DNA of 59,847 nucleotides from a virus. Taxonomy: Duplodnaviria; Caudoviricetes. The position numbers were made by a program, and so were the translations under genes. Location of the stretch: IMG/VR virus record IMGVR_UViG_3300045117_000178, positions 1-59,847 of that record; one strand, given 5' to 3'. Below the pieces are notes generated by a model. The model was not told the origin of the DNA, did no database searches, and saw nothing but the letters and a program-made list of their open reading frames with translations. Below are positions 2,710-49,868 of the stretch, one piece after another. Within the stretch, counting starts at the first letter, position 1, and every line of letters begins with the position of its first letter.

Positions 2710-2741
2710 AGCTAAGAAGAGAGGCAGCCTTCAGGCTACCG
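2710..2741 (-). terminator. Hairpin + TTAGCT terminator
   Basis: Minus strand GGTAGCC-TGAA-GGCTGCC then TCTCTTCTTAGCT; closes the unit starting at 4141. Confidence 0.6.
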
Positions 2742-2763
2742 CTCTCCCGATCGGCGGTCAACC

Positions 2764-3168
2764 TCACCACCTGATCCTCAACTTCTTCTCGTTGTCCACG
2801 GCCCATTCGTGCATGGCAGGTCCCTCAGAACCGCAGCTGTTGTGGCCGCCTCCCTGCCAGAAGGCATCGGTCAGCTCCTCCGGAACGGGGATCAACCTCT
2901 CCCACAAGCCGGGGTACGGATCTGGGTCGTCCGGCAGCCCGTCGTTGCCGTAGCAGCCGGACACCGTGACAGCGTGTGGGCCGATCTTGGCTTGTCCCAT
3001 CATGAAGTGCCCAAGCTGGTGAAGGGAGACCGAACGCACGCACGCTCGAAGTTCTCGATGATCGGCTTCCGGATGTGTGATGTGACTGAGGCTGAACACC
3101 ATGAGGAACGCGCCTTGGGCACGCTGCTCACCGTCTCTCGTGTACGAACGTTTGGATCTCAGGAACAC
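2764..3168 (-). CDS. Hypothetical protein
   Basis: 134-aa ORF in operon. Confidence 0.7.
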   Translation of the reverse strand: MFLRSKRSYTRDGEQRAQGAFLMVFSLSHITHPEADHRELRACVRSVSLHQLGHFMMGQAKIGPHAVTVSGCYGNDGLPDDPDPYPGLWERLIPVPEELTDAFWQGGGHNSCGSEGPAMHEWAVDNEKKLRIRW

Positions 3169-3461
3169 GAGGCACCCATGAGGTAGAGCCCGTCCTCCAC
3201 CGTTGGTCCGGGTATGGACATCGGCGTGTTGGGATGCACCTTGTCCAGCTCCGTGAGGAAGAACCCGTCACTCTGTCCGTCTGCGAACTTGACCGTGCAG
3301 TAGGGGTCTTCCCTGCTCTCACCGACTAGGCTGTGCTCGCCCCCATAGAAGATCTCGGTGATCGTGCCTACGTGACCCAGGTACCTGCGGTTGCAGAAAT
3401 CGTCGTCTCGACGGGCAACACGCACTCGATCGCGGTTGTTGAACTCGTACCACTTGGCCAT
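3159..3461 (-). CDS. Hypothetical protein, SH3/KOW-like
   Basis: Start reassigned to ATG 3461 (GGAGG RBS); DRVRV...GHVGTITEI pattern. Confidence 0.6.
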   Translation of the reverse strand: MAKWYEFNNRDRVRVARRDDDFCNRRYLGHVGTITEIFYGGEHSLVGESREDPYCTVKFADGQSDGFFLTELDKVHPNTPMSIPGPTVEDGLYLMGASCS

Positions 3462-3462
3462 C

Positions 3463-4101
3463 TCATTCCTCCACCATGACTTGAACGATCGTTTGTGTTC
3501 GGAACCTGCACTCTTTGAACAGACGCAGGTCTCTGTTCGACTCGTCGTTGGCAATGAAGGTCGTGGCCTCTTCCTTCGATCCGACTTTGACCACCTCGTT
3601 GCCCGGCGCGAGCACAAGGTATTGAGGCAGTAGACCAGGTGGTGGTACCGAGACCGTGATGCTGGCGGGCTTGTCAGGGAGCTTGACCTCTTTCAACGCG
3701 GAGAAGGCGGGATTGAATGGTGGCACGTCATCATCGTCAGCTCTGCCCTTCTCGATCATCCTCCGCGCATTGTCCCCATCGATGATGGTCACGATGGCCG
3801 GACGACGCTCATTGGTTCGTGGCTGCTTGATCAACGCCCACACAGAGCCAACGGCCAATGTCTGATCGAGGTGGTCGGTCAACTCCGCCAACTGGGCGGG
3901 CTCGCCCTTGGAGTCGATGATGTCACGTGGCTTCGTAGCCCCCGTGCTACTCTCGGCGGCCTCGTTGACCAGGCCGATGAGGTCTGGATTGCTGTACTGC
4001 ACGAAGATCCTCGCGCGCTCTCGAAGTCGTTCCAGCGCGTGCTCGGTGACGAAGAACTTGCCCTCCCGCCCGTTGTCGGGCGGCCTATGAGACATTCCCA
4101 T
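3463..4101 (-). CDS. Hypothetical protein
   Basis: 212-aa ORF with AAGGAGGAG RBS; VTEHALERLRER motif common in phage proteins. Confidence 0.75.
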   Translation of the reverse strand: MGMSHRPPDNGREGKFFVTEHALERLRERARIFVQYSNPDLIGLVNEAAESSTGATKPRDIIDSKGEPAQLAELTDHLDQTLAVGSVWALIKQPRTNERRPAIVTIIDGDNARRMIEKGRADDDDVPPFNPAFSALKEVKLPDKPASITVSVPPPGLLPQYLVLAPGNEVVKVGSKEEATTFIANDESNRDLRLFKECRFRTQTIVQVMVEE

Positions 4102-4136
4102 GCACTCCTCCTTGGAGCTAGGTGACCACTTGGACT

Positions 4137-4163
4137 CTTATACCAACGTGGGCGTGAAGATTC
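4137..4163 (-). promoter_or_regulatory. ATAAG-class promoter motif
   Basis: GAA-N19-ATAAG 36 nt upstream of the 4101 start. Confidence 0.55.
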
Positions 4164-4166
4164 GGA

Positions 4167-4487
4167 TCACTTCTTGGTCAGATCCGCCAACCCCTGGAGC
4201 AGCTGCTTGAGGTCGTCCATCGTGGGCGGCTTCCTCGAATCGTCAGGCTTCCACGGCGTGTTAGAGGGCTGGAGCCTGCCGGTAGCCAAAGCTACCCTCA
4301 CGCTCTCGACGTACATGGTGTAGAGGTGCTCGACCTGCTGACGAGCTCGTCGCTCGCACATCTTAGCCAGAGCCAGGCAGTTGCTGCAAACGATCACACC
4401 TTGGAACTCGTTCTTGCCCTTCGTCGGGTGACCGCAGTTGAGGCAGAGATGGAAGCCTGGTTGGAGAGCAGTGAGTTCAGACACCAT
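4167..4487 (-). CDS. Zn-finger hypothetical protein
   Basis: CLNC...CSNC. Confidence 0.65.
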   Translation of the reverse strand: MVSELTALQPGFHLCLNCGHPTKGKNEFQGVIVCSNCLALAKMCERRARQQVEHLYTMYVESVRVALATGRLQPSNTPWKPDDSRKPPTMDDLKQLLQGLADLTKK

Positions 4488-4914
4488 GCAGACCCGACCT
4501 CTGAAGTCGGCTCTCGATGTCCCTCTCTTCGGCCCCCTTCAGCTCGCCGCGGACGATCCGCTTCATGCCTTCACCCACTGGACCCTCCTGGTCCAACGGG
4601 TAGATGTAGGTAGGCTGGATCGTCATCTTGGGAAGGGGGCCAGGGCACATGTCGACGGTGGTGAAGAACGTGCGGCGCTGCAGATGCTGCAGAGGCGGCT
4701 CACCCTTGGCCCTGGCCTCCAGCAGCTCCTGCTGCGTGGGAGCGATGGGCAGATGCACGGTCGTGACCTGAAGGACATTCAGGAACGTGATGGGTGTGCA
4801 GGTCTCCATCATCGCGGCCAGGTCGTCGTAGGTCTTGAACGACTGACCGAAGTAGCGGTTGTTCGAATCGCCGAAGAAGAACATCCCCGGCTCTTCGTGC
4901 TCGATCTTCTCCAC
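4477..4914 (-). CDS. Hypothetical protein
   Basis: GGAGGTGA RBS before GTG; tiles with neighbours. Confidence 0.65.
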   Translation of the reverse strand: MEKIEHEEPGMFFFGDSNNRYFGQSFKTYDDLAAMMETCTPITFLNVLQVTTVHLPIAPTQQELLEARAKGEPPLQHLQRRTFFTTVDMCPGPLPKMTIQPTYIYPLDQEGPVGEGMKRIVRGELKGAEERDIESRLQRSGLHGV

Positions 4915-4917
4915 GAA

Positions 4918-5226
4918 TCACCTCCGCATGCCCATGTAGGGATTGTAGTGTTGCAGCTCCACGACCAGCGGCTGTTCGGAGAGCTGGTACTTCTCCACCT
5001 TCGACCCCAGCAGTCCGTCTGGCCCAAACAGCGTGCCGGTGCGGTCGAGGTTCCTCAGCGTGAACATGAGGATTCGCTTGTCGTCGATCCAGTGAACGTC
5101 CAGGACTTCGACAAGCCCTGACATTCGACTGATCGCAGGGAAGGCAGACACATGGAATCCGGACTTCCAGATGTTGGTGCCTTCGATCCACTTGGTCTCT
5201 TCCACTGTCGTCTTCACCTCCTGCAA
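4918..5226 (-). CDS. Hypothetical protein
   Basis: 102-aa ORF; start uncertain. Confidence 0.6.
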   Translation of the reverse strand: MQEVKTTVEETKWIEGTNIWKSGFHVSAFPAISRMSGLVEVLDVHWIDDKRILMFTLRNLDRTGTLFGPDGLLGSKVEKYQLSEQPLVVELQHYNPYMGMRR

Positions 5227-5247
5227 GAACCTAACAGATCTGCCGAG

Positions 5248-5275
5248 AAAAAGCCATCGGAGCTAAGGTTATAAG
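5248..5275 (+). promoter_or_regulatory. ATAAG-class promoter motif
   Basis: AAAAA-N18-ATAAG, then AGAAAGGAGGT RBS. Confidence 0.75.
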
Positions 5276-5297
5276 ATCAATAAGAAAGGAGGTCATT

Positions 5298-5636
5298 ATG
5301 GCCTTGCCTGCGATCGCAGCCGGAATCATCCGGCAGGCACTTCAGGTCAACTCTCGGCTGACGTACGACGAGTTCATCTCGGAGCACTCCGCGACTCTCC
5401 GCAAGGAGGGTCGTACGGTCTCGAAGAAGTACTTCGAGATCGTGCGGAGCCAGTTCAAGCCCTCCTCAGCCGCCCCAGCTCCTCCTTCCGGCATCCCTCA
5501 GTCGGTGTCGGAGGCCCTCGCCACCCTGGCCGGTGCGATGAAGGGCCTGGGCTGGGAATCGGTGGTCATCACCAACGGCAAGGTGACGATCACCGAGCGG
5601 CGCGTCCACACGCTGGACCTCTGCCCGCATGTCTAG
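5298..5636 (+). CDS. Hypothetical protein (putative early)
   Basis: Strong RBS; 112 aa. Confidence 0.8.
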   Translation: MALPAIAAGIIRQALQVNSRLTYDEFISEHSATLRKEGRTVSKKYFEIVRSQFKPSSAAPAPPSGIPQSVSEALATLAGAMKGLGWESVVITNGKVTITERRVHTLDLCPHV

Positions 5637-6054
5637 GGCTCGCCGCCTGACCCTGGTCGATCAAATCGACCTGGGGCGGGATGACGAGTACGATGGGCTC
5701 ACCCTGCGCAACTTCAGCGCGGGTGGACCCATCGTGGCGCAGCTCCTGGATGGCCAGATCCAGGAAAACGAGGTCATCGCCATCGTCTCAGCCGATGGCC
5801 AGCGCTGCCGCCTCGTCGCCGACCTTGCGGGGGTTGGCGGCGTCTTCCTTCCGCGGATCGACCCCGCCCAGAAGTGGTCGATCGGTCTCAAGGTGAACGA
5901 GTTCCTGCGTGGCATCGTCGATGGCCACGCAAGGATCAGAGAGCGCCTTGAGGAGGCCAGAGATCGCATCATCAGATCAATGGCCAAGTCAGAGGTCATG
6001 AAGGCTGCGCGCAAATCCAAAAGGAGGATCAGGAAGCGCAGCTACGAGCAGTAG
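5629..6054 (+). CDS. Hypothetical protein with basic C-terminus
   Basis: 141 aa, overlaps upstream gene end. Confidence 0.7.
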   Translation: MSRARRLTLVDQIDLGRDDEYDGLTLRNFSAGGPIVAQLLDGQIQENEVIAIVSADGQRCRLVADLAGVGGVFLPRIDPAQKWSIGLKVNEFLRGIVDGHARIRERLEEARDRIIRSMAKSEVMKAARKSKRRIRKRSYEQ

Positions 6055-6064
6055 ACCACAGCAG

Positions 6065-6111
6065 ACCCCTCCCTCGGGCCGCGGCCGAGGGAGGGGGTTC
6101 TACTCTTAGCT
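6065..6111 (+). terminator. Hairpin + TTAGCT terminator
   Basis: CCCCTCCCTCGG...CCGAGGGAGGGG stem then TTCTACTCTTAGCT. Confidence 0.7.
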
Positions 6112-6513
6112 TCCAAGTGGATCATACGCCCAGTAGGGCTTGAACTTCAGCACGCGCTTTGCCAGGCCCGTAGGCACACCGGTGAACTCGATGTTGCGAT
6201 CGTCCACGTAGCTGTCAGCGAGCAGCTTCTTGCAGCCTTCGCCGCCCGGCCAAGGATGGCCGTTGATGTAGTGGAAGGGCACGCCCAGCTCGCGCAGGTG
6301 GGCACGAAGCTCGGGCGTGTCGTTCCTGCACGTCCACACGACGATCTTGACGCCAGCAGCCTCCATCTCCCTCAGCTCCTCGATCATGCCCTTGAGCACG
6401 GGACCGAAGTCCGTCTGGCTGAAGTCGCCATCGTAGTCAAGGAGCGTGCCGTCGAGGTCCAGCGCACAGATCTTTGGCCTTCCCTGATCGAACTCTCGCA
6501 TTGTCTCGGGCAT
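6106..6513 (-). CDS. HAD-superfamily phosphatase
   Basis: DLDGTL motif I, WTCR motif II, K...YVDDR motifs III/IV. Confidence 0.8.
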   Translation of the reverse strand: MPETMREFDQGRPKICALDLDGTLLDYDGDFSQTDFGPVLKGMIEELREMEAAGVKIVVWTCRNDTPELRAHLRELGVPFHYINGHPWPGGEGCKKLLADSYVDDRNIEFTGVPTGLAKRVLKFKPYWAYDPLGS

Positions 6514-6532
6514 TCGTCGTTCTCCGGCCGCC

Positions 6533-6561
6533 ATTCTACGGCGCGGCCACGGCCGCGGCAA
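6533..6561 (-). promoter_or_regulatory. sigma70-like promoter
   Basis: TTGCCG-N17-TAGAAT upstream of HAD gene. Confidence 0.5.
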
Positions 6562-7306
6562 CTGCGAGTGCGGTGGCCGCGTCCTTCGACATCTTCAGAG
6601 GCGGCAGCTTGTCCAGGCTGTAGGGCTTGCCGAGGTCGGCGATGACCGAGAGCAGGAGCTCCTCATTCTCAGTCAGGTCGGTCTTGACCTGCTGGTACTC
6701 CTGCTCGAGCTTCTTGCTCTGCTCGAGGACGGCTTCGAGCGCCTCGCCGTTATTCCCGTACTGGATCTTGCGAATCCGCTCGTTGTACTCGCGGCTGATG
6801 GCCGCGGTCGCCTCACGGATCTTGGACTCCTTCTCGGCCTTGAGCCTGGCGATCTCGTCCTCGTTGACCTTCTGCTGGGTCCTCCGCAGCCGGCCGGCCT
6901 GGTCGCTCAACGGCCCCATGAGTCGGGCGACCTCGAGCTCCTTGGCCCGGATGCCCTCGGCCGTCTGCTTTCGCAGGACTTGCTGCGCACGATGGAGGTA
7001 GGCACCGACCACGTAGTTGATCCCGTGGACGAAGGAGTCCTTGTTCGGTTGGTCGGTGCCGATGAGCGCCTGGATCTCCTCCGGCCAGCCGCTGAAGACC
7101 TTGAGCATCTCCTCAGCCACTGCCGAGATCACCTCCTCCTTCTTGGCCGCCGCCTTCTTCTCGTCCTTCTCTTCCTGCGTGGGCACGCCCTTGAGCAGCT
7201 CCTGGCGCACCTTCTCGCGCTTCTTCTCGCGCTCGCGCTCCTCCTCCTTCTTCTTCTTCTTGCCGGCCTCTGCCTCGGACTGGTCCTTCGCCTTCTCCTT
7301 GGTCAT
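6536..7306 (-). CDS. Coiled-coil hypothetical protein
   Basis: 256 aa, K/E-rich, GGAGGAGG RBS. Confidence 0.75.
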   Translation of the reverse strand: MTKEKAKDQSEAEAGKKKKKEEEREREKKREKVRQELLKGVPTQEEKDEKKAAAKKEEVISAVAEEMLKVFSGWPEEIQALIGTDQPNKDSFVHGINYVVGAYLHRAQQVLRKQTAEGIRAKELEVARLMGPLSDQAGRLRRTQQKVNEDEIARLKAEKESKIREATAAISREYNERIRKIQYGNNGEALEAVLEQSKKLEQEYQQVKTDLTENEELLLSVIADLGKPYSLDKLPPLKMSKDAATALAVAAAVAAP

Positions 7307-7478
7307 GTTCCTCCTCCATCAGCTCCGCGACCCGGAGCAGTCGATGATACTTCGTGTAGAGATCGGTCACCAGCCAGTACAACGTCGGATCTTGATTGCC
7401 GCGTGTACGAATGAACAACTCCTCGAACCGACTGTTGGTGGCCGGCTGATGGACCTCCAAGAACTTCTTGAGCTTCAC
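7113..7478 (-). CDS. Hypothetical protein (3' half overlaps next gene)
   Basis: GTGA-coupled start fills the 7306-7475 gap; long overlap lowers confidence. Confidence 0.4.
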   Translation of the reverse strand: MKLKKFLEVHQPATNSRFEELFIRTRGNQDPTLYWLVTDLYTKYHRLLRVAELMEEEHDQGEGEGPVRGRGRQEEEEGGGARAREEAREGAPGAAQGRAHAGREGREEGGGQEGGGDLGSG

Positions 7479-7987
7479 TTCCCGACGATCCGATGCAGAG
7501 AGTTGTCGTCCGTCGCGAGCTTGCGTTGGATGCTGGCGACGGTCTCCAGCAAGCCGTACACGTAGTTCTCGAGCTTGGCCGCGGCCGGACGCTCGAACCT
7601 CTCAGCCATCTCGAACAGCTTGCTGAACGGCACGAGATGCCGACAGGCCGCATGGCACTCGAGGATGGGCCTCTGGACCTCCAGCAGGTGCACGATGTAT
7701 CCCATCTCCTCGGCCTGGGTCTTGAACCACTTGTACTCCCACTGCTGGGTGTTGGTGTTGTCCACGATGATCAGGTCGGCGTCGTTCTCGATGAACTGGG
7801 TGAAGCGGTCGTGCGTCCACTGCACGGCCTCGTTGATGCGCTCCTTGTCGAACTTGTACGGCTGACCGTCCCTGGTCCAGAAGTCGTCCATCGAGACGAT
7901 GAACGCCTCGGCCTTGTCCCTGAAGAGCTTGGCCACCGTGCTCTTGCCCGAACCCGGCAGTCCCCTCATGATGATCACAGTCCTCAT
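7475..7987 (-). CDS. P-loop kinase, AAA_33/polynucleotide-kinase (N4BP2-like)
   Basis: MRGLPGSGKST, SMDDF, IIVDNTN..WE motifs; AAGGAG RBS. Confidence 0.85.
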   Translation of the reverse strand: MRTVIIMRGLPGSGKSTVAKLFRDKAEAFIVSMDDFWTRDGQPYKFDKERINEAVQWTHDRFTQFIENDADLIIVDNTNTQQWEYKWFKTQAEEMGYIVHLLEVQRPILECHAACRHLVPFSKLFEMAERFERPAAAKLENYVYGLLETVASIQRKLATDDNSLHRIVGK

Positions 7988-8666: not shown

Positions 8667-8681
8667 CAGGGCACTTCCTTT

Positions 8682-10042: not shown

Positions 10043-10051
10043 GATGATCTC

Positions 10052-12294: not shown

Positions 12295-12316
12295 TTCGGT
12301 CTCCTTCCAAGCAGTG

Positions 12317-12343
12317 AAAGTGTTGATGATCTCTCGTTATAAG
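12317..12343 (+). promoter_or_regulatory. ATAAG-class promoter motif
   Basis: AAA-N19-ATAAG. Confidence 0.65.
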
Positions 12344-12392
12344 AACTTTGTCGATCGATCGGGCTTTTACCACACCCACAAGGAGATCACCA

Positions 12393-12758: not shown

Positions 12759-12779
12759 GAGCGGGTCACCCCGCAGGGG

Positions 12780-12815
12780 ACCACCCGCGCTGCCGCGCGG
12801 GTGGTTCTCTTAGCT
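12780..12815 (+). terminator. Hairpin + TTAGCT terminator
   Basis: ACCACCCGCGC-TGCC-GCGCGGGTGGT then TCTCTTAGCT. Confidence 0.75.
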
Positions 12816-13286: not shown

Positions 13287-13295
13287 GTCGTACTC

Positions 13296-14255: not shown

Positions 14256-14277
14256 GTCTTTCCTCCGCGTTGGAAGA

Positions 14278-14299: not shown

Positions 14300-14312
14300 C
14301 CCAGTCAACCCC

Positions 14313-14339
14313 AAAAATGATTCGGGGGTGTGGTATAAG
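14313..14339 (+). promoter_or_regulatory. ATAAG-class promoter motif
   Basis: AAAAA-N17-ATAAG. Confidence 0.7.
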
Positions 14340-15122: not shown

Positions 15123-15167
15123 CGGCGCGTCTGCACCAAGATCTCGATCTTACCTATGCACGCGCGT

Positions 15168-15206
15168 GCGATCTCCAGCTGATGTTGGAGATCGTACATC
15201 TTAGCT
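15168..15206 (+). terminator. Hairpin + TTAGCT terminator
   Basis: GCGATCTCCAGC-TGAT-GTTGGAGATCGT then ACATCTTAGCT. Confidence 0.7.
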
Positions 15207-17549: not shown

Positions 17550-17575
17550 CTTATACCATCGATCAATGATTGTTT
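17550..17575 (-). promoter_or_regulatory. ATAAG-class promoter motif
   Basis: AAA-N18-ATAAG upstream of histone. Confidence 0.65.
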
Positions 17576-17679
17576 GCCAGCCGGCCGCTTCGCGGCCGCC
17601 GGCTGCCGGAGGGTGGACCAAGCTGGGTTCGCGGATGGGTCTAGATTCCTACTCTATAATTCCTCTTCTTCCTTTTTTC

Positions 17680-17797: not shown

Positions 17798-17800
17798 AAC

Positions 17801-17827
17801 AAAACCACAAGGCTTTCTTGGGATAAG
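17801..17827 (+). promoter_or_regulatory. ATAAG-class promoter motif
   Basis: AAAA-N18-ATAAG with CTTTCTTGGG spacer. Confidence 0.75.
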
Positions 17828-18129: not shown

Positions 18130-18159
18130 AAGCTGGGAACCCCTCCCCCGGCGGGTGGG

Positions 18160-18193
18160 CCGCCGGTCGAAAGACTGGCGGTTCATCTTAGCT
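18160..18193 (+). terminator. Hairpin + TTAGCT terminator
   Basis: CCGCCGGTC-GAAA-GACTGGCGG then TTCATCTTAGCT. Confidence 0.75.
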
Positions 18194-18199
18194 TGATAG

Positions 18200-18225
18200 A
18201 AAATCGTGGTCGATTCAGTGATAAG
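18200..18225 (+). promoter_or_regulatory. ATAAG-class promoter motif
   Basis: AAAA-N17-ATAAG. Confidence 0.7.
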
Positions 18226-18940: not shown

Positions 18941-19041
18941 CCGATCTCAAAGTACTGGCCATCCGCGCGGCGATCGTTTTCATATCCGTGTTCGTCGTGT
19001 ACTTCGTCTACTACCTCATCAAGCGCCCGCCAAATGACTGA
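18937..19041 (+). CDS. 34-aa single-TM peptide (not in ORF track)
   Basis: ATGA overlap; MTDLKVLAIRAAIVFISVFVVYFVYYLIKRPPND. Confidence 0.55.
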   Translation: MTDLKVLAIRAAIVFISVFVVYFVYYLIKRPPND

Positions 19042-19058
19042 CCCCTTCCAGGTATAAG
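19032..19058 (+). promoter_or_regulatory. ATAAG-class promoter motif
   Basis: AAA-N19-ATAAG. Confidence 0.7.
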
Positions 19059-19282: not shown

Positions 19283-19321
19283 GAGACGGCCGCCATCCCA
19301 TCAGCCGTCGTCTCATTAGCT
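19283..19321 (+). terminator. Hairpin + TTAGCT terminator
   Basis: GAGACGGC...GTCGTCTC then ATTAGCT. Confidence 0.65.
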
Positions 19322-19329
19322 TGAAGAGG

Positions 19330-19355
19330 AAAAAAGGAATATTGCTGGATATAAG
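19330..19355 (+). promoter_or_regulatory. ATAAG-class promoter motif
   Basis: A6-N15-ATAAG. Confidence 0.7.
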
Positions 19356-20406: not shown

Positions 20407-20436
20407 AAGAACAACGCGGCCGCGTTGTTCTTAGCT
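20407..20436 (+). terminator. Hairpin + TTAGCT terminator
   Basis: AAGAACAACGCGGCCGCGTTGTTCTT palindrome running into TTAGCT. Confidence 0.7.
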
Positions 20437-20987: not shown

Positions 20988-21260
20988 ATGCGACGCTTCT
21001 ATCTGTACCGAAGCGTGGACGTCACTGTGGTATCGGGCACCGGCGTGATCGCGGAGGGTATCGAGTTCACCAATGGGTGGGTGGTACTGCGTTGGATCAG
21101 CTCAACTCCCAGTGTGATCTTCTACACGGATGTGGCCGACATGTTGAAGGTCCACGGTCACCATGGATTGACGACCATTCAGTGGGTAGATCGGGAGACA
21201 AAAACGGATAGCGTGAAAAGGTATAAGAACCATGACAGAGGACGGGAAACCGTGCTCTGA
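20988..21260 (+). CDS. Conserved phage hypothetical protein
   Basis: RRF.L.R..DV...SGTG..AEG.EF..G..V.RW...HGH pattern familiar from phage proteins. Confidence 0.75.
   Translation: MRRFYLYRSVDVTVVSGTGVIAEGIEFTNGWVVLRWISSTPSVIFYTDVADMLKVHGHHGLTTIQWVDRETKTDSVKRYKNHDRGRETVL
21200..21227 (+). promoter_or_regulatory. ATAAG-class promoter motif
   Basis: AAAAA-N18-ATAAG. Confidence 0.65.
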
Positions 21261-21368
21261 GCTGCCCTCGGCGTCCTACGACCTCGGGATGCCAATTCTG
21301 GGTGGCTGGAACCTCCGATCACCTCCTTTCTTGGTGATTGAAGCCTGATCGGGGGTTCCATTTTAGCT
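21232..21368 (+). ncRNA. Candidate small RNA with anti-Shine-Dalgarno loop
   Basis: Bracketed by ATAAG and hairpin-TTAGCT; three stem systems; contains GATCACCTCCTTTCT. Confidence 0.55.
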
Positions 21369-22065: not shown

Positions 22066-22080
22066 GAAGGCCGGCTTCTG

Positions 22081-22108
22081 AAACCCACCACTCCTTTCTT
22101 GGCATAAG
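22081..22108 (+). promoter_or_regulatory. ATAAG-class promoter motif
   Basis: AAA-N20-ATAAG with CCTTTCTTGG spacer. Confidence 0.75.
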
Positions 22109-22312: not shown

Positions 22313-22342
22313 GGGGCGAAGTTCTGCCCCAAATTCTTAGCT
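22313..22342 (+). terminator. Hairpin + TTAGCT terminator
   Basis: GGGGC...GCCCC then AAATTCTTAGCT. Confidence 0.55.
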
Positions 22343-22411
22343 TCGAAGATGAGCGCGGATGTCAAGTATGAATGAACCGGTTTCCCAAATTTTTGGGAGC
22401 GTCGGCTTCTG

Positions 22412-22439
22412 AAATTCGATCTCCCTTTCTGGAGATAAG
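22412..22439 (+). promoter_or_regulatory. ATAAG-class promoter motif
   Basis: AAA-N20-ATAAG. Confidence 0.7.
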
Positions 22440-22443: not shown

Positions 22444-22721
22444 ATAGAAAGGATGAAGCAGAAATTACGGCCAATTCGTGTTCTGCGAGTCCTTTGCTTC
22501 CTAAGCGTGGGGGAAGAGATTCCCATCCCTAGTCCGTCCTAAGGAAAGGCACGTTCTCCGAAAGGAGTGACTGACGTAGCCAGAGCCCCCTGCTTCCGAG
22601 TCAACGCACCAGCGGCCGCGGTGTTCATGGGGATGTGCAGCGAACCCGATTGGCACGGGTTCGAGCTCTAGCGGAGCGTCTGCAAGAGGATCTCGGGGAG
22701 AGCTTCGGCTCTTTCTTAGCT
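22444..22721 (+). ncRNA. Candidate structured ncRNA (~275 nt)
   Basis: ATAAG to GAGAGC-TTCG-GCTCTT-TCTTAGCT; GAAA tetraloop and other hairpins; only a 29-codon ORF inside. Confidence 0.5.
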
Positions 22722-45608: not shown

Positions 45609-46382
45609 ATGGGAAGTGCTGAAGATATCAAGCCCGTAGCAACGCTGGCAGACTACGTCGAGCCCCACGAAGCCGCCGAAATGCTGGGGGTGAAGCGCTC
45701 CACGATCTGGAACTACATCAAGCGCGGGCTCCTCAAAGGACGACACTTCAAGGGTCAGGGGAGGCGGTACTTCATACGCAAGATCGACGTCCAATCCATC
45801 GTGAGCGCGAAGGAAGAGATCGATACGAACGGCGGATCTCTCAAAGAGATCATCGCGGGCATCAGGATTCGTCTGCACAGCATCGAGTCCAGGATGGACT
45901 TCCTGATGGAGGCGTTGGGTCTCCAAGTGTCGGTTCTCAGGGACAAACCAGTCGAGGACTTGCTGGCGATCTACAATGACGCGGTTCTGGCTGGGTCAAC
46001 GAACCCGCGCTTCATCCCCGCGGTGCAGGTACGCAAGTGGGCCGATGTGCTCTGCCAGTTCACAGAGCTGGAATTCCAACGACTGGTCGCACCTACGCAG
46101 GACATCCACCCGTGGAAGCCGCTCTTCGGCCTCTGCGTCAACCTCCTCACGGACTTCCGCCGCCGCAAGCGCTTCGGGTCCGACGTCAACATGCAGCAGA
46201 CGTACCGGGTGCTGGACAAGGCACGCAAGCAGCTCAGCCGGGCAGTGATGGTGTTCGAGAGCTCCATGGCTTCGAACTTCGGACCCATCAAATCCGCACG
46301 CATCCACAAGATCCATAGCCACGCGGACTCTCTCGACCGCTACATTGACGCCGAAGTAGGCCTCCCAGAACCTCCAAACTGA
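45609..46382 (+). CDS. Excisionase/MerR-like HTH DNA-binding protein
   Basis: EAAEMLGVKRSTIWNYIKRGLL; start uncertain. Confidence 0.75.
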   Translation: MGSAEDIKPVATLADYVEPHEAAEMLGVKRSTIWNYIKRGLLKGRHFKGQGRRYFIRKIDVQSIVSAKEEIDTNGGSLKEIIAGIRIRLHSIESRMDFLMEALGLQVSVLRDKPVEDLLAIYNDAVLAGSTNPRFIPAVQVRKWADVLCQFTELEFQRLVAPTQDIHPWKPLFGLCVNLLTDFRRRKRFGSDVNMQQTYRVLDKARKQLSRAVMVFESSMASNFGPIKSARIHKIHSHADSLDRYIDAEVGLPEPPN

Positions 46383-46408
46383 AAACCGATCCTCCTTCTT
46401 GGGATAAG
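46382..46408 (+). promoter_or_regulatory. ATAAG-class promoter motif
   Basis: AAAA-N18-ATAAG. Confidence 0.75.
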
Positions 46409-46458: not shown

Positions 46459-46803
46459 ATGGCAACGAAGCCTGCAGCAGCAGCAAAGAAGCGCGAGATC
46501 GTCCACAACCAGGACGGTCTCTTCATCCCCACCGAACGCATCCCCGAGGTGCGGGCGGCGGTCGGGGAGAAGAACTTCGACAAGGCCGTGCGGGAGGCTG
46601 GCCTCGACCCGAAGGACCTCGCCAGCCCGGGGTTCGGCGACATCATCGTCGATACCTGGGGGTCGGGCTGGAAGGGGAAGGTCACGATCGTGGTGGCCGG
46701 CGTCGGGGCCGTGACGCTCACCCTCACCCTGGTGGAGGGCGGGTTCCGCCTCGCCGGCAGCGAGGGGCCGCTGTCCTGGCTCGCGCACAAGCTGGTCGGC
46801 TGA
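46459..46803 (+). CDS. Hypothetical protein with C-terminal TM helix
   Basis: AAGGAGG RBS; hydrophobic segment. Confidence 0.8.
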   Translation: MATKPAAAAKKREIVHNQDGLFIPTERIPEVRAAVGEKNFDKAVREAGLDPKDLASPGFGDIIVDTWGSGWKGKVTIVVAGVGAVTLTLTLVEGGFRLAGSEGPLSWLAHKLVG

Positions 46804-46837
46804 GCACAGCACCATCACAAGAGCAGCAAAGGAGGGC

Positions 46838-46877
46838 TCCCGGTAGATGAAAACCGGGAGTTCTTCTTAGCTATAAG
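46838..46877 (+). terminator. Hairpin + TTAGCT terminator overlapping next ATAAG promoter
   Basis: CTCCCGGT-N8-ACCGGGAG TTCTTCTTAGCT ATAAG; AAAA 19 nt upstream of ATAAG lies in the loop. Confidence 0.7.
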
Positions 46878-46897: not shown

Positions 46898-47089
46898 ATG
46901 AACAAAGAACAATTGATCCGTGCCATCAAAGCGCAGATCCGTGGTGCCACCGGTAGGGACTACATCGTTGATTGGGATGTGATGACACCAGCAGAGCTCT
47001 CCACCGTGCTCAGGCTCCTGAAGGACATCGAGGACGAGGCCAAGATGCGCGCCAAGCAGCGGGCGCGCAGGATGGGCATCCCGCTCTGA
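46898..47089 (+). CDS. Small hypothetical protein
   Basis: AGAAAGGAGG RBS. Confidence 0.8.
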   Translation: MNKEQLIRAIKAQIRGATGRDYIVDWDVMTPAELSTVLRLLKDIEDEAKMRAKQRARRMGIPL

Positions 47090-47090
47090 C

Positions 47091-47117
47091 GGAACGCAGG
47101 GGGGCGTTCCATTAGCT
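47091..47117 (+). terminator. Hairpin + TTAGCT terminator
   Basis: GGAACGC-N6-GCGTTCC ATTAGCT. Confidence 0.7.
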
Positions 47118-47119
47118 TG

Positions 47120-47147
47120 AAAACCGGACTGCCTTTCTTGGGATAAG
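47120..47147 (+). promoter_or_regulatory. ATAAG-class promoter motif
   Basis: AAAA-N19-ATAAG. Confidence 0.75.
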
Positions 47148-47173: not shown

Positions 47174-47578
47174 ATGATCCATCGTCTTTGTGAGTGGCAC
47201 AACTACGACGGGGACATGCGGGGCTGGTCCCGCGGTGCCCATGGCTCGCCCGACATCGCGTGCAACGCCTGTAGGGCGGACGGGTCGTTCACCCCCGAGG
47301 AGGTGGGGGAGTACGAGCGGGAGGAGGAGGCGGAGATCGAGCGCCGCGCTCGCATCGTCACGGCCGGCAATGGGGCGCAGCTGCGCATCACCTGCCACAG
47401 CCCGCCGTTCAGTTCCGGCGGCGACTACAGGGTGATCCTGCTGTCCGGGGCGTGGCCGACCTCGGATGAGCTCATCAACCTCTGCAGCGCCGGCCACGCC
47501 CCCTTCGGGGGGTACGTGCGCATCGACGTTCACAAGGGCGAGCCAGTCGCCCACGTCTACGTGAACGGGACCGACTAG
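47174..47578 (+). CDS. Hypothetical protein
   Basis: GAGGAG RBS; N-terminal Cys/His cluster. Confidence 0.75.
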   Translation: MIHRLCEWHNYDGDMRGWSRGAHGSPDIACNACRADGSFTPEEVGEYEREEEAEIERRARIVTAGNGAQLRITCHSPPFSSGGDYRVILLSGAWPTSDELINLCSAGHAPFGGYVRIDVHKGEPVAHVYVNGTD

Positions 47579-47614
47579 GCTCCCTGGGTTCTCCAGGTCG
47601 AGTCTTCATTAGCT
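47578..47614 (+). terminator. Hairpin + TTAGCT terminator
   Basis: GGCTC-CCTGG-loop-CCAGG-TC-GAGTC then TTCATTAGCT. Confidence 0.55.
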
Positions 47615-49463
47615 AGCGCTTGCGCTTGGGGCGGAAGTCCTCGCCCGAGTCCTTCAGCGGCGCGATGATGTCCGGACGTGGGTACTTGATCATGGATGCC
47701 AGGAAGCAGTACACGATCGAGTGGAAGGTGTCGTCCGTGGTGCCGGGCGAGTGATTGTAGATCGTCATGCGCAGCTGCTTGCTGTACTCGCTGAAGATGT
47801 TGAGGATGTCTTGTCCGTAGGGCTCGAAGAAGTCATCCCAGTTCGGCAGCGCGATCTGCTTGCGGATCATCGCGTTGAACACGTCGCTCATGACCTCTGT
47901 GCGGTGGCACATGAACCGACGTAGCTGCGGCTGCCAGAAGATCTTGCCCTTCTTCTGGTTGGGGTTGTACTGGTACTTGAGCACCTTCTGCGGCCCGAAC
48001 GCGCGGACAAGGTGGTCATTGCGATCGAAGCCACCGCCGTAGTCGCAGCCGGTGATCTGGACGTTGTACCGCGCGAGGATGTTGCAGATGCGGTCGAGCT
48101 GCCGCACAGGCTCCAGGTCCTCACCCACGAAACGGTGTACCCAGAAGACGGTGAAGGCACCAGTCCCGAAGTACGTGCCCAGAGAGATCACGGTGTACGC
48201 ATTCTCTCCCGTCCCCCAGTCGATGCCGGCGAAGATGTCCTGGGTGTGACCGAACTTCATGTAGTACTCGAAGTCGCTGATCCGAATGTCCTCCTTGCAG
48301 CACGCCTTCAGCTGACCTCGAGTGATGGGACGAGTACCGCTGTCGTAGGAGAGGCCGAGGACCTCGTTGTTGAACTTCTGCCTCGGGTAGCGCTTCTGTT
48401 TCTCGAGCAGCCCCTTCCAGCCGTCAGGCGTCTTGACCACCCATGGCACCAGCAGCTGGCTGATGTGGTAGCCCTCGAACGTCACCTTCTCCTTGTTGCT
48501 GTCGGTCGCGGGATTCATCGCAGACCACACAGCGTCAGGGTGGTAGATTTCGATCGGCTGGTGGCAACGGTCGCAGATCAGTCCCTCGGCCCCGATGTTG
48601 TCCTCACCCAAGATGTTCCAATGCCAGGTGCTCTTGTCGCCGGGCACACCATGGTGCTCACAGGGGACGACCCACTCGTTCTGCGTGGAGAAGTTCGCCC
48701 AGTAGTACTCGATGGTGTTGTCTAGGCTCTTGGGCGTGCCGGAGTAGATGAAGATCTTCCAGTCGCTGTGGCTGGCGCACTCCTCGATGACGGGGATGTT
48801 GTCGACCAGGATGTCCTGGATCTCGTCGATGTCTATCAGATCCGTGGGGATACCGCGGACGCGGTCGGCCGTGAGGTAGGCGTAGCGAAGACGGATCTGA
48901 GAGTAGTTGATGAACTTCTTGTGGAAGACCGCATTCGTGAGCTTGGTGTTGGTGTACGCCTGAACGACCGGGCTCATGCTGATCGGGTCAGCGAGACGAT
49001 CGTTGGAGAACACCTTGGTCTGCTCGGCCGAGGGGCTGACGTACAGGCTCTTGAAGTAGTTGATGAGGCAGCTGTAGGCGAGCAGCTTGTTGCCGAGCGT
49101 CGTGCTCTTCTCGACCTGGCGGCCGGCCTTCAGCAGCGTCTTCTTCTCACCCGTGTCGTAGACTCGGCGGAGGTACGGGCGCTCTGCGAACGAGAAGTTG
49201 TCGACCTTGCCCTTGTCCGCAATGCGAATGGCGGTCTCTGAGAACTCGGACGGGGAGACGTTGTAGACGTAGTCGATCTTGGCTTCCGACTCGTCGACGT
49301 CTTCTGGCTCTTCATCGAAGCCGTAGTCCCTGGGCTCACCCTCTTCATCGAGATCGTAGAACGGCTCAGTGTAGATCTTGCCGTCCACAAGCTGCTGTGC
49401 GAGAGCGATCGGAACATCGATCTCTGCGCGGCGTGCTCGAACTCGACGAAGGTCAACAAGCAA
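47613..49463 (-). CDS. Terminase large subunit (lambda GpA-like)
   Basis: KAGRQVEKST Walker A, IDIDEIQD Walker B, SGTPK, C..H/CDRC Zn site, AGIDWG nuclease, DDTFH; start uncertain. Confidence 0.9.
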   Translation of the reverse strand: MLVDLRRVRARRAEIDVPIALAQQLVDGKIYTEPFYDLDEEGEPRDYGFDEEPEDVDESEAKIDYVYNVSPSEFSETAIRIADKGKVDNFSFAERPYLRRVYDTGEKKTLLKAGRQVEKSTTLGNKLLAYSCLINYFKSLYVSPSAEQTKVFSNDRLADPISMSPVVQAYTNTKLTNAVFHKKFINYSQIRLRYAYLTADRVRGIPTDLIDIDEIQDILVDNIPVIEECASHSDWKIFIYSGTPKSLDNTIEYYWANFSTQNEWVVPCEHHGVPGDKSTWHWNILGEDNIGAEGLICDRCHQPIEIYHPDAVWSAMNPATDSNKEKVTFEGYHISQLLVPWVVKTPDGWKGLLEKQKRYPRQKFNNEVLGLSYDSGTRPITRGQLKACCKEDIRISDFEYYMKFGHTQDIFAGIDWGTGENAYTVISLGTYFGTGAFTVFWVHRFVGEDLEPVRQLDRICNILARYNVQITGCDYGGGFDRNDHLVRAFGPQKVLKYQYNPNQKKGKIFWQPQLRRFMCHRTEVMSDVFNAMIRKQIALPNWDDFFEPYGQDILNIFSEYSKQLRMTIYNHSPGTTDDTFHSIVYCFLASMIKYPRPDIIAPLKDSGEDFRPKRKR

Positions 49464-49487
49464 AACGAGAACCCCACTTGTTATAAG
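49462..49487 (+). promoter_or_regulatory. ATAAG-class promoter motif
   Basis: AAAA-N17-ATAAG. Confidence 0.65.
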
Positions 49488-49491
49488 AGAC

Positions 49492-49868
49492 TTGTAGCGG
49501 AAGCGACGTAAGTTTCTTTCGCTGCGCGCGCAACCTCCGTGTGGTGGTAGGAGGTAGGGTCAATCAGGCCCTCGCTCTCGGTATTTCTAGTTGGGCTTCG
49601 GCCCTTCATCCGAATCGCCTTGAGCATCCGGCCACCAAAACGTGGGAGGCGTTTCCTCCAAGTGTCTCGAGCTTCTATTGCTCCCCCTCGATCAACCAAC
49701 ACCCTAATAGGGACACGTTGGGTGGAGCGTAGTAGCAGAGGGACGCTTTGTCCCCTGGGTGACTAAGCGCCGCGTAGATCCGGCGCGGATCCCAGCCCGC
49801 CACAGCCGGGTAATGCTACTGCGCACCATTCAACGCGGATTGGCGGCTTGGCCGCCAATCATTTAGCT
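49492..49868 (+). ncRNA. Candidate highly structured ncRNA (~375 nt)
   Basis: ATAAG to GATTGGCGGC-TTG-GCCGCCAATC-ATTTAGCT; many hairpins incl. UUCG; no RBS-led ORF. Confidence 0.6.

What the first reader, a model, noticed from the sequence alone, without database searches (positions are those of the whole stretch)
2710..49868. Non-canonical terminator: GC hairpin followed by TTAGCT, paired with the ATAAG promoters
Seen: hairpin, 0-8 nt mostly pyrimidine, then TTAGCT at 6106, 12810, 15201, 18188, 19316, 20431, 21363, 22337, 22716, 46867, 47112, 47609, 49863 (+) and 2715 (-). Every ATAAG unit except the histone one ends this way (18221 and 19054 share one), and none has a poly-U tract. Inference: a sequence-specific termination or 3'-processing signal read by the phage RNAP. 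I know of no described equivalent.
Basis: partly seen in the sequence, partly recalled or inferred. Interest (0 to 1): 0.88.

Follow-up and report, generated by a model that had tools for sequence, protein, structure and literature searches.

The report
Phage terminators: hairpin plus TTAGCT
Short gene units in this lake phage end in a hairpin followed by TTAGCT, most likely a terminator type shared by phages that carry their own bacterial-type RNA polymerase.

Summary
All 14 listed TTAGCT copies exist, and each follows an RNA-type hairpin by 0-9 nt. Thirteen of the 14 lie on the + strand. TTAGCT is the most enriched 6-mer after intergenic hairpins: 11 of 72 hairpin-strands against 0.2 expected. 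The hairpins share no sequence.

Each + strand unit starts at an AAAA-N17-GnkATAAG promoter and ends at such a site. At all 7 convergent junctions the motif lies on the short unit's strand.

The signal is conserved in uncultured relatives. In the isolated relatives Salmonella phage Arash and Vibrio phage D69 it appears as a hairpin, an ordinary U-tract, then AG. That pattern is nearly absent from 400 kb of E. coli. The promoter motif and a sigma homologue are conserved as well. A paper reports Arash virions carrying RNAP and sigma.

Best reading: these are intrinsic-type terminators of a phage-specific transcription system. TTAGCT is the GC-rich clade's shortened U-tract plus a conserved AGC(T).

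No RNA data exist, so the 3' ends are inferred. A described analogue does exist: phiKZ terminators are a hairpin followed by TTAT. I rate this a new variant of a known kind.

The parts
2710..2746 (-). Terminator-like element: hairpin 2717-2746, then TTAGCT 2710-2715 (read on the - strand)
   Evidence: hairpin -18.4 kcal/mol, gap 1 nt. It lies 48 nt after the stop of the - strand gene 2764-3003. This unit starts at the - strand ATAAG promoter at 4137.
6066..6111 (+). Hairpin 6066-6096, spacer, TTAGCT 6106-6111
   Evidence: -28.1 kcal/mol, gap 9 nt, 51 nt after the stop of gene 5629-6054. Convergent with - strand gene 6106-6513, whose TAA stop is the complement of the motif's TTA.
12776..12815 (+). 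Hairpin 12776-12809, TTAGCT 12810-12815
   Evidence: -30.2 kcal/mol, gap 0, 51 nt after the stop of gene 12393-12758. Convergent with - strand gene 12810-13286.
15166..15206 (+). Hairpin 15166-15197, TTAGCT 15201-15206
   Evidence: -23.5 kcal/mol, gap 3, 78 nt after the stop of gene 14763-15122. Convergent with - strand genes.
18156..18193 (+). Hairpin 18156-18185, TTAGCT 18188-18193
   Evidence: -23.3 kcal/mol, gap 2, 58 nt after the stop of gene 17854-18129. The next promoter's ATAAG is at 18221.
19283..19321 (+). Hairpin 19283-19314, TTAGCT 19316-19321
   Evidence: -12.9 kcal/mol, gap 1, 42 nt after the stop of gene 19085-19273. Shared by the units that start at 18221 and 19054. The next promoter is at 19351.
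20409..20436 (+). Hairpin 20409-20430, TTAGCT 20431-20436
   Evidence: -12.4 kcal/mol, gap 0, 43 nt after the stop of gene 19389-20387. Convergent with - strand gene 20447-20923.
21321..21368 (+). Hairpin (21321-21356 in a 44-nt fold, longer in the 144-nt fold), TTAGCT 21363-21368. It closes an ORF-less, highly structured unit of about 140 nt that starts at promoter 21223.
   Evidence: the 144-nt RNA folds at -69.7 kcal/mol, z = -5.7. A ribosome-binding site and an ORF (21378-) follow directly, so this site may act as a leader attenuator.
22313..22342 (+). Hairpin 22313-22330, TTAGCT 22337-22342
   Evidence: -9.8 kcal/mol (the weakest of the 14), gap 6, 28 nt after the stop of gene 22135-22308.
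22672..22721 (+). Hairpin region, TTAGCT 22716-22721
   Evidence: -14.7 kcal/mol in the 44-nt fold. One search shows a tighter hairpin that ends 3 nt before the motif. It closes the unit from promoter 22435, which has only a possible 29-aa ORF. Convergent with - strand gene 22983-24176.
46831..46872 (+). Hairpin 46831-46866, TTAGCT 46867-46872. It overlaps the next promoter: AAAA lies in the loop, and the motif's GCT directly precedes the ATAAG at 46873.
   Evidence: -23.4 kcal/mol, gap 0. The same overlapping module occurs in L016, L009 and G001 145715.
47091..47117 (+). Hairpin 47091-47110, TTAGCT 47112-47117
   Evidence: -10.6 kcal/mol, gap 1, 22 nt after the stop of gene 46898-47089. The next promoter is at 47143.
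47573..47614 (+). Hairpin 47573-47607, TTAGCT 47609-47614
   Evidence: -14.4 kcal/mol, gap 1, 30 nt after the stop of gene 47174-47578. Convergent with the terminase gene 47613-49388(-). A hairpin+TTAGCT lies at the same place beside the terminase gene in L009, L011, L012, L013, L016, L026 and L027, with different hairpins.
49838..49868 (+). Hairpin 49838-49860, TTAGCT 49863-49868
   Evidence: -16.9 kcal/mol, gap 2. It closes an ORF-poor unit of about 380 nt from promoter 49483. The motif overlaps the last codons of the convergent gene 49859-50290(-), so coding constraint may also hold it here.
5246..5275 (+). Promoter of unit 5298-6054 (ATAAG at 5271)
   Evidence: AAAA-rich block about 20-22 nt upstream, G three bases before ATAAG.
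12314..12343 (+). Promoter of unit 12393-12758 (ATAAG at 12339)
14310..14339 (+). Promoter of unit 14368-15122 (ATAAG at 14335)
17798..17827 (+). Promoter of unit 17854-18129 (ATAAG at 17823)
18196..18225 (+). Promoter of unit 18260-19041 (ATAAG at 18221)
   Evidence: The spacing to the A-rich block is unusual.
19029..19058 (+). Promoter of gene 19085-19273 (ATAAG at 19054)
19326..19355 (+). Promoter of gene 19389-20387 (ATAAG at 19351)
21198..21227 (+). Promoter of the structured leader or sRNA unit (ATAAG at 21223)
22079..22108 (+). Promoter of gene 22135-22308 (ATAAG at 22104)
22410..22439 (+). Promoter of unit 22435-22716 (ATAAG at 22435)
46379..46408 (+). Promoter of gene 46459-46803 (ATAAG at 46404)
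46848..46877 (+). Promoter of gene 46898-47089 (ATAAG at 46873); overlaps the preceding terminator
47118..47147 (+). Promoter of gene 47174-47578 (ATAAG at 47143)
49458..49487 (+). Promoter of the ORF-poor unit 49483-49863 (ATAAG at 49483)
4137..4166 (-). - strand ATAAG promoter of the unit that ends at 2715
17550..17579 (-). - strand ATAAG promoter of the histone-fold gene 17300-17509. This unit has no hairpin+TTAGCT.
   Evidence: Histone fold.
55189..59847 (-). Fused beta-beta' RNA polymerase gene; its 5' end is cut by the window edge. Candidate reader of the promoters and terminators.
   Evidence: Rpb2 domain 6 at E = 1.7e-62, plus Rpb1 domains 1, 2, 3 and 5; one such ORF per genome, 2096 aa in G001 and 2168 aa in G002.

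Best explanation
The 14 hairpin+TTAGCT elements are intrinsic-type (hairpin-driven, factor-independent) transcription terminators. They close the short, separately promoted 'ATAAG' units of this phage and insulate them from the convergent long - strand operons. They act as RNA, in the sense orientation of those units.

TTAGCT is not a signal unrelated to the classical U-tract. Across the lineage the signal is a hairpin, a U-tract, then AG(C). In this GC-rich clade the U-tract has shrunk to about two U, the pyrimidine-rich spacer is partly drawn into the stem through G-U pairs, and AGC(T) has become fixed.

The promoter motif (AAAA-N17-GnkATAAG), the terminator signature and a sigma-factor homologue are all conserved in relatives that infect unrelated hosts. 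In the isolated relative Arash this enzyme is reported in the virion.

Inferred, not shown: that RNA 3' ends map at or within TTAGCT; that AGC(T) acts as a pause or release element that makes up for the short U-tract; and that the phage enzyme, not the host enzyme, is the one terminated.
For: 1. Anatomy. All 14 motifs sit 0-9 nt after a hairpin. Eleven lie 22-78 nt after the stop of a gene on the same strand. The other three close ORF-less or ORF-poor units.
2. Orientation. All 14 are on the strand of the short unit. That includes all 7 convergent junctions (6106, 12810, 15201, 20431, 22716, 47609, 49863).
3. RNA-level structure. Sense folds are more stable than antisense folds: mean -20.2 against -17.2 kcal/mol, Wilcoxon p = 0.025. 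G-U pairs number 22 in sense folds and 7 in antisense folds.
4. Independent origins. The 14 hairpin regions share only 7-8 nt chance matches (E >= 0.23), yet the hexamer is invariant. No one-mismatch variant lies behind a terminator-like intergenic hairpin in the sense of a unit; 5 such hits exist, none of that kind.
5. Unbiased enrichment after intergenic hairpins.
   - Window: TTAGCT 11 of 72 against 0.2 expected.
   - G001: TTTAGC 6 and TTAGCT 5 against 0.2.
   - G002: TTTAG 6 against 0.3, TTTAGC 5 and TTAGCT 4 against 0.2.
   - Arash: TTTTAG 9 against 0.3.
6. Relatives fetched by terminase. Close relatives: 14 of 35 TTAGCT copies have a hairpin, against 182 of 3367 for permuted hexamers (p = 2e-9). 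Distant relatives: 4 of 45 against 57 of 6205 (p = 9e-4). At the same place beside the terminase gene the hairpins differ but TTAGCT is kept.
7. Lineage-specific, not host-specific. After hairpins, TTTAG against TTTA followed by A, C or T is 11:13 in Arash, 11:14 in D69 and 1:41 in E. coli K-12 (p = 2e-5 and 3e-5).
8. Same grammar for promoters. GGTATAAG is the commonest intergenic 8-mer in Arash (17 copies) and GTTATAAG in D69 (17 copies). G001 has 21 intergenic GnkATAAG sites.
9. Apparatus. There is one fused beta-beta' RNAP per genome. A homologue of Arash sigma gp10 occurs in D69 (44% identity) and in G001 (27% over 228 aa, E = 2e-14). RNAP beta, beta' and sigma were detected in Arash virions by mass spectrometry (passages of PMC10585845).
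10. Precedent. phiKZ terminators are a conserved hairpin followed by TTAT (passage of PMC10914365).
Against: - No RNA evidence of any kind. No RNA run holds the window, so no 3' end is mapped and termination cannot be told from processing.
- The gap between stem and motif varies from 0 to 9 nt. A classical terminator releases RNA at a fixed distance from the stem, so this variation is awkward.
- Four hairpins are weak: -9.8, -10.6, -12.4 and -12.5 kcal/mol.
- At 49863 the motif overlaps the last codons of a convergent gene. At 6106 and 12810 it overlaps a convergent gene's stop codon. Part of the conservation there may come from coding.
- In three tandem cases the motif abuts the next promoter's A-rich block, and at 46867 its GCT is the GnkATAAG prefix. 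A promoter-side role is not excluded for those sites.
- No sigma gene is found in the window itself.
- G003, a relative with 45% GC, shows no enrichment of the motif after its 35 intergenic hairpin-strands.
- Distant relatives show only modest statistics at the looser threshold: 5 of 45, p = 0.022.
- The host polymerase cannot be excluded as the enzyme that transcribes and terminates these units.
Confidence: 0.6

Rival explanations
1. RNA processing or stability element. Transcription runs through. A phage or host endoribonuclease cuts at or near UUAGCU, and the hairpin left at the new 3' end protects the mRNA from exonucleases.
For: A strictly conserved single-stranded hexamer next to a hairpin, at a variable distance of 0-9 nt, fits a nuclease or protein recognition site better than a release point measured from the stem. 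The sense-strand bias of the folds fits this reading as well as it fits termination.
Against: Every unit has its own promoter. Seven sites face convergent genes, where read-through would produce antisense RNA. In relatives the same signal is an ordinary hairpin plus U-tract, which is the anatomy of a terminator.
Confidence: 0.12
2. Ordinary host-RNAP intrinsic terminators (early genes read by the host enzyme). The conserved AGC(T) serves something else, such as a binding site for a phage regulator or antiterminator, or part of the next promoter.
For: - The promoter has a bacterial two-block layout with a TGn-like prefix in this window.
- Hairpin plus U-rich tails work with bacterial RNAP in general (established knowledge).
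- Three motifs abut the next promoter, and at 46867 the motif supplies the promoter's G.
- No sigma gene is found in the window.
Against: - Promoter and terminator signatures are kept across phages of Salmonella, Vibrio and unknown lake hosts with GC from 45% to 61%. The signature is nearly absent from E. coli hairpin tails (1 against 41).
- The promoter ends in G where bacterial primary sigma factors need T (established knowledge of the -10 element).
- RNAP and sigma homologues are conserved, and are reported in the virion in Arash.
- Most motifs (10 of 14) have no promoter directly downstream.
Confidence: 0.15
3. DNA-level element: a nick, recombination, replication or packaging site, or a mobile repeat, made of a cruciform-forming palindrome plus TTAGCT.
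For: The element is an inverted repeat next to a fixed hexamer that contains the palindrome AGCT. It has many copies per genome.
Against: The hairpins share no sequence, so this is not a repeated mobile element. The stems rely on G-T pairs that would be A-C mismatches on the other strand (22 against 7). The orientation always follows the direction of transcription of the short unit (14 of 14). The positions are gene 3' ends.
Confidence: 0.04
4. Chance, or recent copying of one terminator within this genome.
For: One of 100 shuffles reaches 17 bare copies of the hexamer. Several promoters in the window are near-copies of one another.
Against: The association with hairpins is far beyond chance. 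The hairpins are unrelated to each other. The signal recurs in genomes whose terminase is only 50% identical and in isolated phages.
Confidence: 0.02

Closest known systems
Bacterial intrinsic (Rho-independent) terminators
   Same: A GC-rich RNA hairpin just after a gene, followed by a pyrimidine- and U-rich stretch. Strand-specific. Often placed between convergent genes. In relatives of this phage the tail is a normal run of 3-7 U.
   Different: In this window the longest T run is 2-4. An invariant hexamer follows the stem at a variable distance. The AG(C) after the U-tract is a lineage signature that is nearly absent from E. coli hairpin tails (1 of 42).
Conserved terminators of phiKZ and 201phi2-1 (mapped by ONT-cappable-seq)
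   Same: A phage that brings its own multisubunit RNAP. Many terminators share a stem-loop followed by a short conserved non-poly-U sequence that begins with TTA: 5'-TTAT-3' in phiKZ (passage of PMC10914365). The 201phi2-1 paper says its main motif resembles that of phiKZ (passage of PMC11512511).
   Different: In phiKZ the stem sequence itself is conserved. Here the stems are all different. The tail here is TTAGCT, not TTAT. The polymerases differ: phiKZ-type enzymes are split and have no sigma (passage of PMC7824862). This lineage has one fused, cellular-like beta-beta' and a sigma homologue. The phiKZ sites are mapped by experiment; these are not.
Sequence-specific (class II) termination signals of T7 RNA polymerase
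   Same: A short conserved sequence, not a long U-tract, that is read by a phage-encoded polymerase. This is recalled knowledge; I saw only the search listing and the start of the abstract of bioRxiv 10.64898/2026.02.12.705533.
   Different: The class II signals work without a hairpin and act on a single-subunit polymerase (recalled). Here a hairpin is always present and the polymerase is of the multisubunit type. I made no sequence comparison.

Membership tests
Intrinsic (Rho-independent) terminator | Stable GC-rich stem-loop in the transcript just downstream of a gene | tested here: met
   14 of 14 sites. Energies run from -9.8 to -30.2 kcal/mol. Eleven sites lie 22-78 nt after a stop codon on the same strand.
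Intrinsic (Rho-independent) terminator | U-tract (a run of U) directly after the stem | tested here: not met
   In the window the longest T run is 2-4, and the 8 nt before the motif hold 2-4 T. The feature is met in relatives: Arash, D69, G001 and G002 have runs of 3-7 T.
Intrinsic (Rho-independent) terminator | RNA 3' ends map 7-9 nt after the stem, and termination needs no factor | not testable with these tools
   No RNA run holds the window.
phiKZ-type conserved terminator (hairpin + TTAT) | Conserved stem sequence shared by the copies | tested here: not met
   The 14 hairpin regions share only 7-8 nt chance matches.
phiKZ-type conserved terminator (hairpin + TTAT) | Short conserved tail starting with TTA directly after the stem, in place of a long U-tract | tested here: inconclusive
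   TTA is shared, but the tail is TTAGCT here and TTAT in phiKZ. Likeness or common origin cannot be judged from 3 nt.
phiKZ-type conserved terminator (hairpin + TTAT) | The phage transcribes with its own multisubunit RNAP | tested here: met
   A fused beta-beta' RNAP gene is present. It is of a different, sigma-using type.
Repeated mobile element (REP or MITE type) | Copies share sequence over the whole element | tested here: not met
   no similarity between the copies beyond the hexamer.
Hairpin promoter of a virion RNAP (N4 type) | The hairpin lies upstream of the genes it drives | tested here: not met
   The elements lie at 3' ends of units. At 7 sites they face convergent genes, so transcripts started there would be antisense.

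The most novel reading that the evidence does not exclude
A whole lineage of large phages runs a private transcription grammar for its own sigma-dependent, bacterial-type RNA polymerase. It reaches from uncultured lake phages to the isolated Salmonella phage Arash and Vibrio phage D69, and in Arash the enzyme is reported in the virion. The grammar has a kATAAG promoter and a terminator in which a conserved AGC(U) after the hairpin is a true sequence-specific pause or release element. That element would let this enzyme terminate with almost no U-tract in GC-rich genomes. It would be a new kind of termination signal for a multisubunit RNAP, and possibly one that the host enzyme ignores.
Probability: 0.3. 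Interest if true: 0.75.

Novelty: new variant of a known kind. Interest (0 to 1): 0.55.

Why it matters
The finding gives a matched promoter and terminator pair for a poorly known group of phages. These phages carry a cellular-type RNA polymerase with a sigma factor, unlike the sigma-less phiKZ-type enzymes.

The same signatures occur in two cultured phages, Arash and D69, so the idea can be tested directly by 3'-end RNA sequencing and by in vitro transcription.

If the AGC(T) element really replaces most of the U-tract, it would show how a bacterial-type polymerase can be made to terminate on a different cue. It would also provide orthogonal terminators and promoters for synthetic biology.

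The motif pair is a practical annotation aid too. It marks transcription units, including ORF-less ones that may be small RNAs, in uncultured phage genomes.

Tried and rejected
- RNA evidence. The look-up of sequencing runs listed no RNA holder; all 14 rows are lake-water DNA runs. I did not use read laying, because DNA contigs cannot show RNA ends.
- DNA similarity to known phages. One search (distant mode, window 17000-24000) found nothing.
- Rfam. No family reached its gathering score anywhere in the window.
- Simple terminator scan. One search found 15 terminator-like sites in 4001-24000 against 11.7 +/- 4.3 in shuffles, and only one of them (22693-22708) is one of the TTAGCT sites. The standard rule of a hairpin plus at least 5 T in 8 nt misses this class.
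- Relatives by the ParB/GmrSD-like protein. One search found none.
- Sigma factor. Pfam sigma-70 regions 2 and 4 hit only G002 above the cut-off. The G002 sigma has no clear homologue in the window, G001, Arash or D69. Arash gp10 does have one in G001 and D69, but none in the window, which is only about a third of its genome.
- My first hairpin tests were too loose or too crude. A threshold of -11 kcal/mol is met by 23% of control hexamers in the window; I replaced it with -14 and -17. The crude ORF mask hides most intergenic DNA in the GC-rich genomes, so I use that call only for Arash, D69 and E. coli.
- Motif as stop codon of convergent genes. Rejected as a general explanation: the motif overlaps a convergent stop or last codons at only 4 of 14 sites (6106, 12810, 47609, 49863).
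- Motif as part of the next promoter. Rejected as a general explanation: only 4 of 14 sites have a promoter within 35 nt downstream.
- Hairpins as promoters. Rejected on position.
- G003 (45% GC) shows no enrichment of the motif.
- Literature. Searches for TTAGCT with terminator and hairpin (4 unrelated papers), for TATAAG with phage, RNA polymerase and promoter (8 papers, none on this lineage by title and abstract), and for jumbo phage, virion RNA polymerase, termination and U-tract found no description of this signal. The Arash paper has no occurrence of 'promoter' or 'terminator' in its main text.
- Supplementary tables were closed. The supplementary tables of the phiKZ, 201phi2-1 and Arash papers may list terminators that I could not see.

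Full report
**What the window is.** The window is a whole IMG/VR virus record of 59,847 bases, judged about 33% complete, with 59-66% GC. My own codon-usage gene caller puts most genes on the - strand. These include the terminase (47613-49388), a major head protein (36301-37428) and a large protein cut by the window edge (55189-59847). That protein carries Rpb2 domain 6 followed by Rpb1 domains, so it is a fused beta-beta' RNA polymerase. Short + strand units lie between the long - strand operons.

**Checking the observation.**
- TTAGCT occurs 17 times against 7.0 +/- 2.7 in shuffles. Three more copies (5261-, 20973-, 50815+) have no adjacent hairpin.
- For the 14 listed copies the hairpin ends 0-9 nt before the hexamer, and within 0-3 nt in 10 of 14 once G-U pairs are allowed. 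Energies run from -9.8 to -30.2 kcal/mol.
- The 8 nt before the motif hold 5-8 pyrimidines, and the longest T run is 2-4. 'No poly-U tract' is therefore correct for this window.
- An unbiased count of all k-mers in the tails of intergenic hairpins puts TTAG, TTAGC and TTAGCT first at k = 4, 5 and 6. TTAGCT occurs in 11 of 72 hairpin-strands against 0.2 expected.
- Against the 119 other permutations of the same six letters, 9 of 17 TTAGCT copies have a strong adjacent hairpin, compared with 137 of 1535 (p = 6e-6).
- The hairpins are unrelated to each other in sequence, so this is not a repeated element.
- Five one-mismatch variants of the hexamer lie behind intergenic hairpins. None follows a hairpin in the sense of a unit.

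**Relation to genes and promoters.**
- The ATAAG sites share a longer pattern: an A-rich block (AAA in 11-14 of the 14 + strand sites) about 20-22 nt upstream, an invariant G three bases before ATAAG (14 of 14), and a TAA about six bases after it. This two-block layout resembles a sigma-70-family promoter whose second block ends in G.
- Every + strand unit starts at such a promoter and ends at a hairpin+TTAGCT. Promoters 18221 and 19054 share the 19316 site.
- The - strand ATAAG unit from 4137 ends at the - strand copy at 2715.
One search supports the histone fold: the gene matches solved DUF1931 and CBFD_NFYB_HMF proteins with E from 2e-6 to 0.03.
- Eleven motifs lie 22-78 nt after a stop codon on the same strand. 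Three close ORF-less or ORF-poor units.
- Seven sites are at convergent junctions, and in all seven the motif is on the short unit's strand.
- Intergenic hairpins of the long - strand operons, for example 36241-36266 and 39895-39920, are not followed by the motif.

**RNA or DNA?** The sense strand folds better than the antisense strand: mean -20.2 against -17.2 kcal/mol, p = 0.025. The sense stems hold 22 G-U pairs against 7 in antisense folds. Together with the strict orientation, this points to a structure that acts in the RNA of the short units.

**Conservation.**
- Relatives fetched through the terminase show hairpin, T-rich spacer and TTAGCT again. This includes genomes whose terminase is only about 50% identical (L018, L019, L020, L022, L026, L027).
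- At the same place beside the terminase gene, the hairpins of L011, L013, L026 and L027 are quite different from the window's, yet TTAGCT is kept.
- Close relatives: 14 of 35 copies have a hairpin, against 182 of 3367 for permuted hexamers (p = 2e-9). Distant relatives: 5 of 45 against 220 of 6205 (p = 0.022) at -14 kcal/mol, and 4 of 45 against 57 of 6205 (p = 9e-4) at -17.
- In the 149-kb relative G001, the top 6-mers after intergenic hairpins are TTTTAG, TTTAGC and TTAGCT (5, 6 and 5 against 0.1-0.2). Variants such as TTAGCC and TTAGTA also occur.
- In the complete 185-kb genome G002, TTTAG (6 against 0.3), TTTAGC (5) and TTAGCT (4) are among the top k-mers.
- G003 (45% GC) shows no enrichment.
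- In these relatives the tail is usually a true T run that ends in AGC. The window's TTAGCT is the short end of that pattern.

**Cultured relatives.**
- By protein search, the nearest isolated phages are Vibrio phages D69, D181 and D148, and Salmonella phage Arash. RNAP identity is 32-36% and terminase identity about 30%.
- In both Arash and D69, intergenic hairpins are typically A-tract, GC stem, loop, stem, T3-7, then AG.
- TTTAG against TTTA followed by another base is 11:13 in Arash and 11:14 in D69. It is 1:41 in the first 400 kb of E. coli K-12, a close stand-in for Arash's host (p = 2e-5 and 3e-5).
- The C after TTAG is kept in 11 of 11 cases in the window, 7 of 10 in G001 and 6 of 8 in G002, but in only 6 of 20 in Arash and 3 of 18 in D69. 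AGCT is therefore special to the GC-rich lake clade, and AG to the whole lineage.

**Who reads it?**
- The promoter motif is also lineage-wide. GGTATAAG is the commonest intergenic 8-mer in Arash (17 copies) and GTTATAAG in D69 (17 copies). G001 has 21 intergenic GnkATAAG sites.
- Each genome of the clade has one fused beta-beta' RNAP of about 2100 aa.
- Arash's sigma factor gp10 has homologues in D69 (44% identity) and in G001 (27%, E = 2e-14).
- The Arash paper reports, in the passages I read, that the RNAP beta subunit is the most abundant protein found in purified virions, and that beta' and the sigma factor are found there too. It has no word on promoters or terminators.
- A review states that the phiKZ-type RNAPs have no sigma (passage), so this lineage differs from them.
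- Conservation of promoter, terminator signature, RNAP and sigma across hosts as different as Salmonella, Vibrio and unknown lake bacteria is the main argument that the phage's own enzyme reads these signals. It remains an inference.

**Mechanism.** Most likely these are hairpin-driven terminators. The hairpin forms in the nascent RNA, and the short UU plus AGC(U) lies where the RNA-DNA hybrid must give way. The conserved AGC(U) may slow or destabilise this particular polymerase and so make up for the missing U-tract. The variable gap of 0-9 nt argues against a simple fixed release point and leaves room for a pause element or a protein or nuclease site. Some sites have added roles:
- 46867 overlaps the next promoter. 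This arrangement is kept in L016, L009 and G001.
- 21363 closes a strongly structured 140-nt leader just before a ribosome-binding site. It may act as an attenuator, like the 5'-UTR terminators described for phiKZ.

**Comparison with what is known.**
- The closest described case is phiKZ. Most of its mapped intrinsic terminators share a stem-loop followed by 5'-TTAT-3'. The 201phi2-1 paper reports a main terminator motif that resembles it.
- The present signal differs in its variable stems, its TTAGCT tail, and its link to a sigma-using, cellular-type phage RNAP.
- My literature searches found no description of it.
- I rate it a new variant of a known kind.

**Limits.** There are no RNA data. 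The gene calls are my own. The hairpin rules are simple. The host is unknown. The window holds only a third of the genome.

Noticed in passing
window 17300-17509 (-): A 69-aa phage protein with a histone fold. It matches solved DUF1931 and CBFD_NFYB_HMF proteins (E from 2e-6 to 0.03), but no Pfam family at E <= 0.01. It has its own ATAAG promoter at 17550(-).
   Followed up: partly
window 21223-21368 (+): An ORF-less unit of about 140 nt between an ATAAG promoter and a hairpin+TTAGCT. It folds very strongly (-69.7 kcal/mol, z = -5.7) and sits directly before a ribosome-binding site and the ORF at 21378. It is a candidate small RNA or leader attenuator. No Rfam match.
   Followed up: partly
window 49483-49868 (+): A unit of about 380 nt between an ATAAG promoter and a hairpin+TTAGCT, lying between the terminase start and the next gene, with no convincing ORF. 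It is a candidate non-coding RNA. Relatives have a hairpin+TTAGCT at the same place.
   Followed up: no
window 17578-17800: The region between the divergent promoters 17550(-) and 17823(+) holds three palindromes. One is a near-perfect 52-nt AT-rich inverted repeat at 17675-17726 (-26 to -32 kcal/mol). Possibly a regulatory or replication-related site.
   Followed up: no
window 55189-59847 (-); G001 66826-70998; G002 16742-21214: The RNA polymerase is a single fused beta-beta' protein of about 2100 aa, with only one copy per genome. It lies beside structural genes. In Arash and D69 the homologous region is split into several genes.
   Followed up: partly
window 19389-20387 (+) and 18260-18940 (+): The ATAAG units encode a deoxynucleoside kinase (Pfam dNK, E = 6e-35) and a protein with a weak GmrSD_N/ParB-like match (E = 0.002, below the Pfam cut-off). 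Both look like early functions.
   Followed up: no
Arash 26744, 100247, 138594, 173368 (record coordinates): A repeat of about 70 nt or more, with an inverted TATAAG core and repeated GGTTACAA-like words, occurs at least four times in Arash intergenic DNA. Its function is unknown.
   Followed up: no
Arash 46647 and 59000 (-): Two Arash tRNA-like 3' ends are followed directly by the T-run plus TTAGCT tail. The signature may also close tRNA units. tRNA identity is judged by eye from the T-arm sequence and was not checked with a tRNA finder.
   Followed up: no
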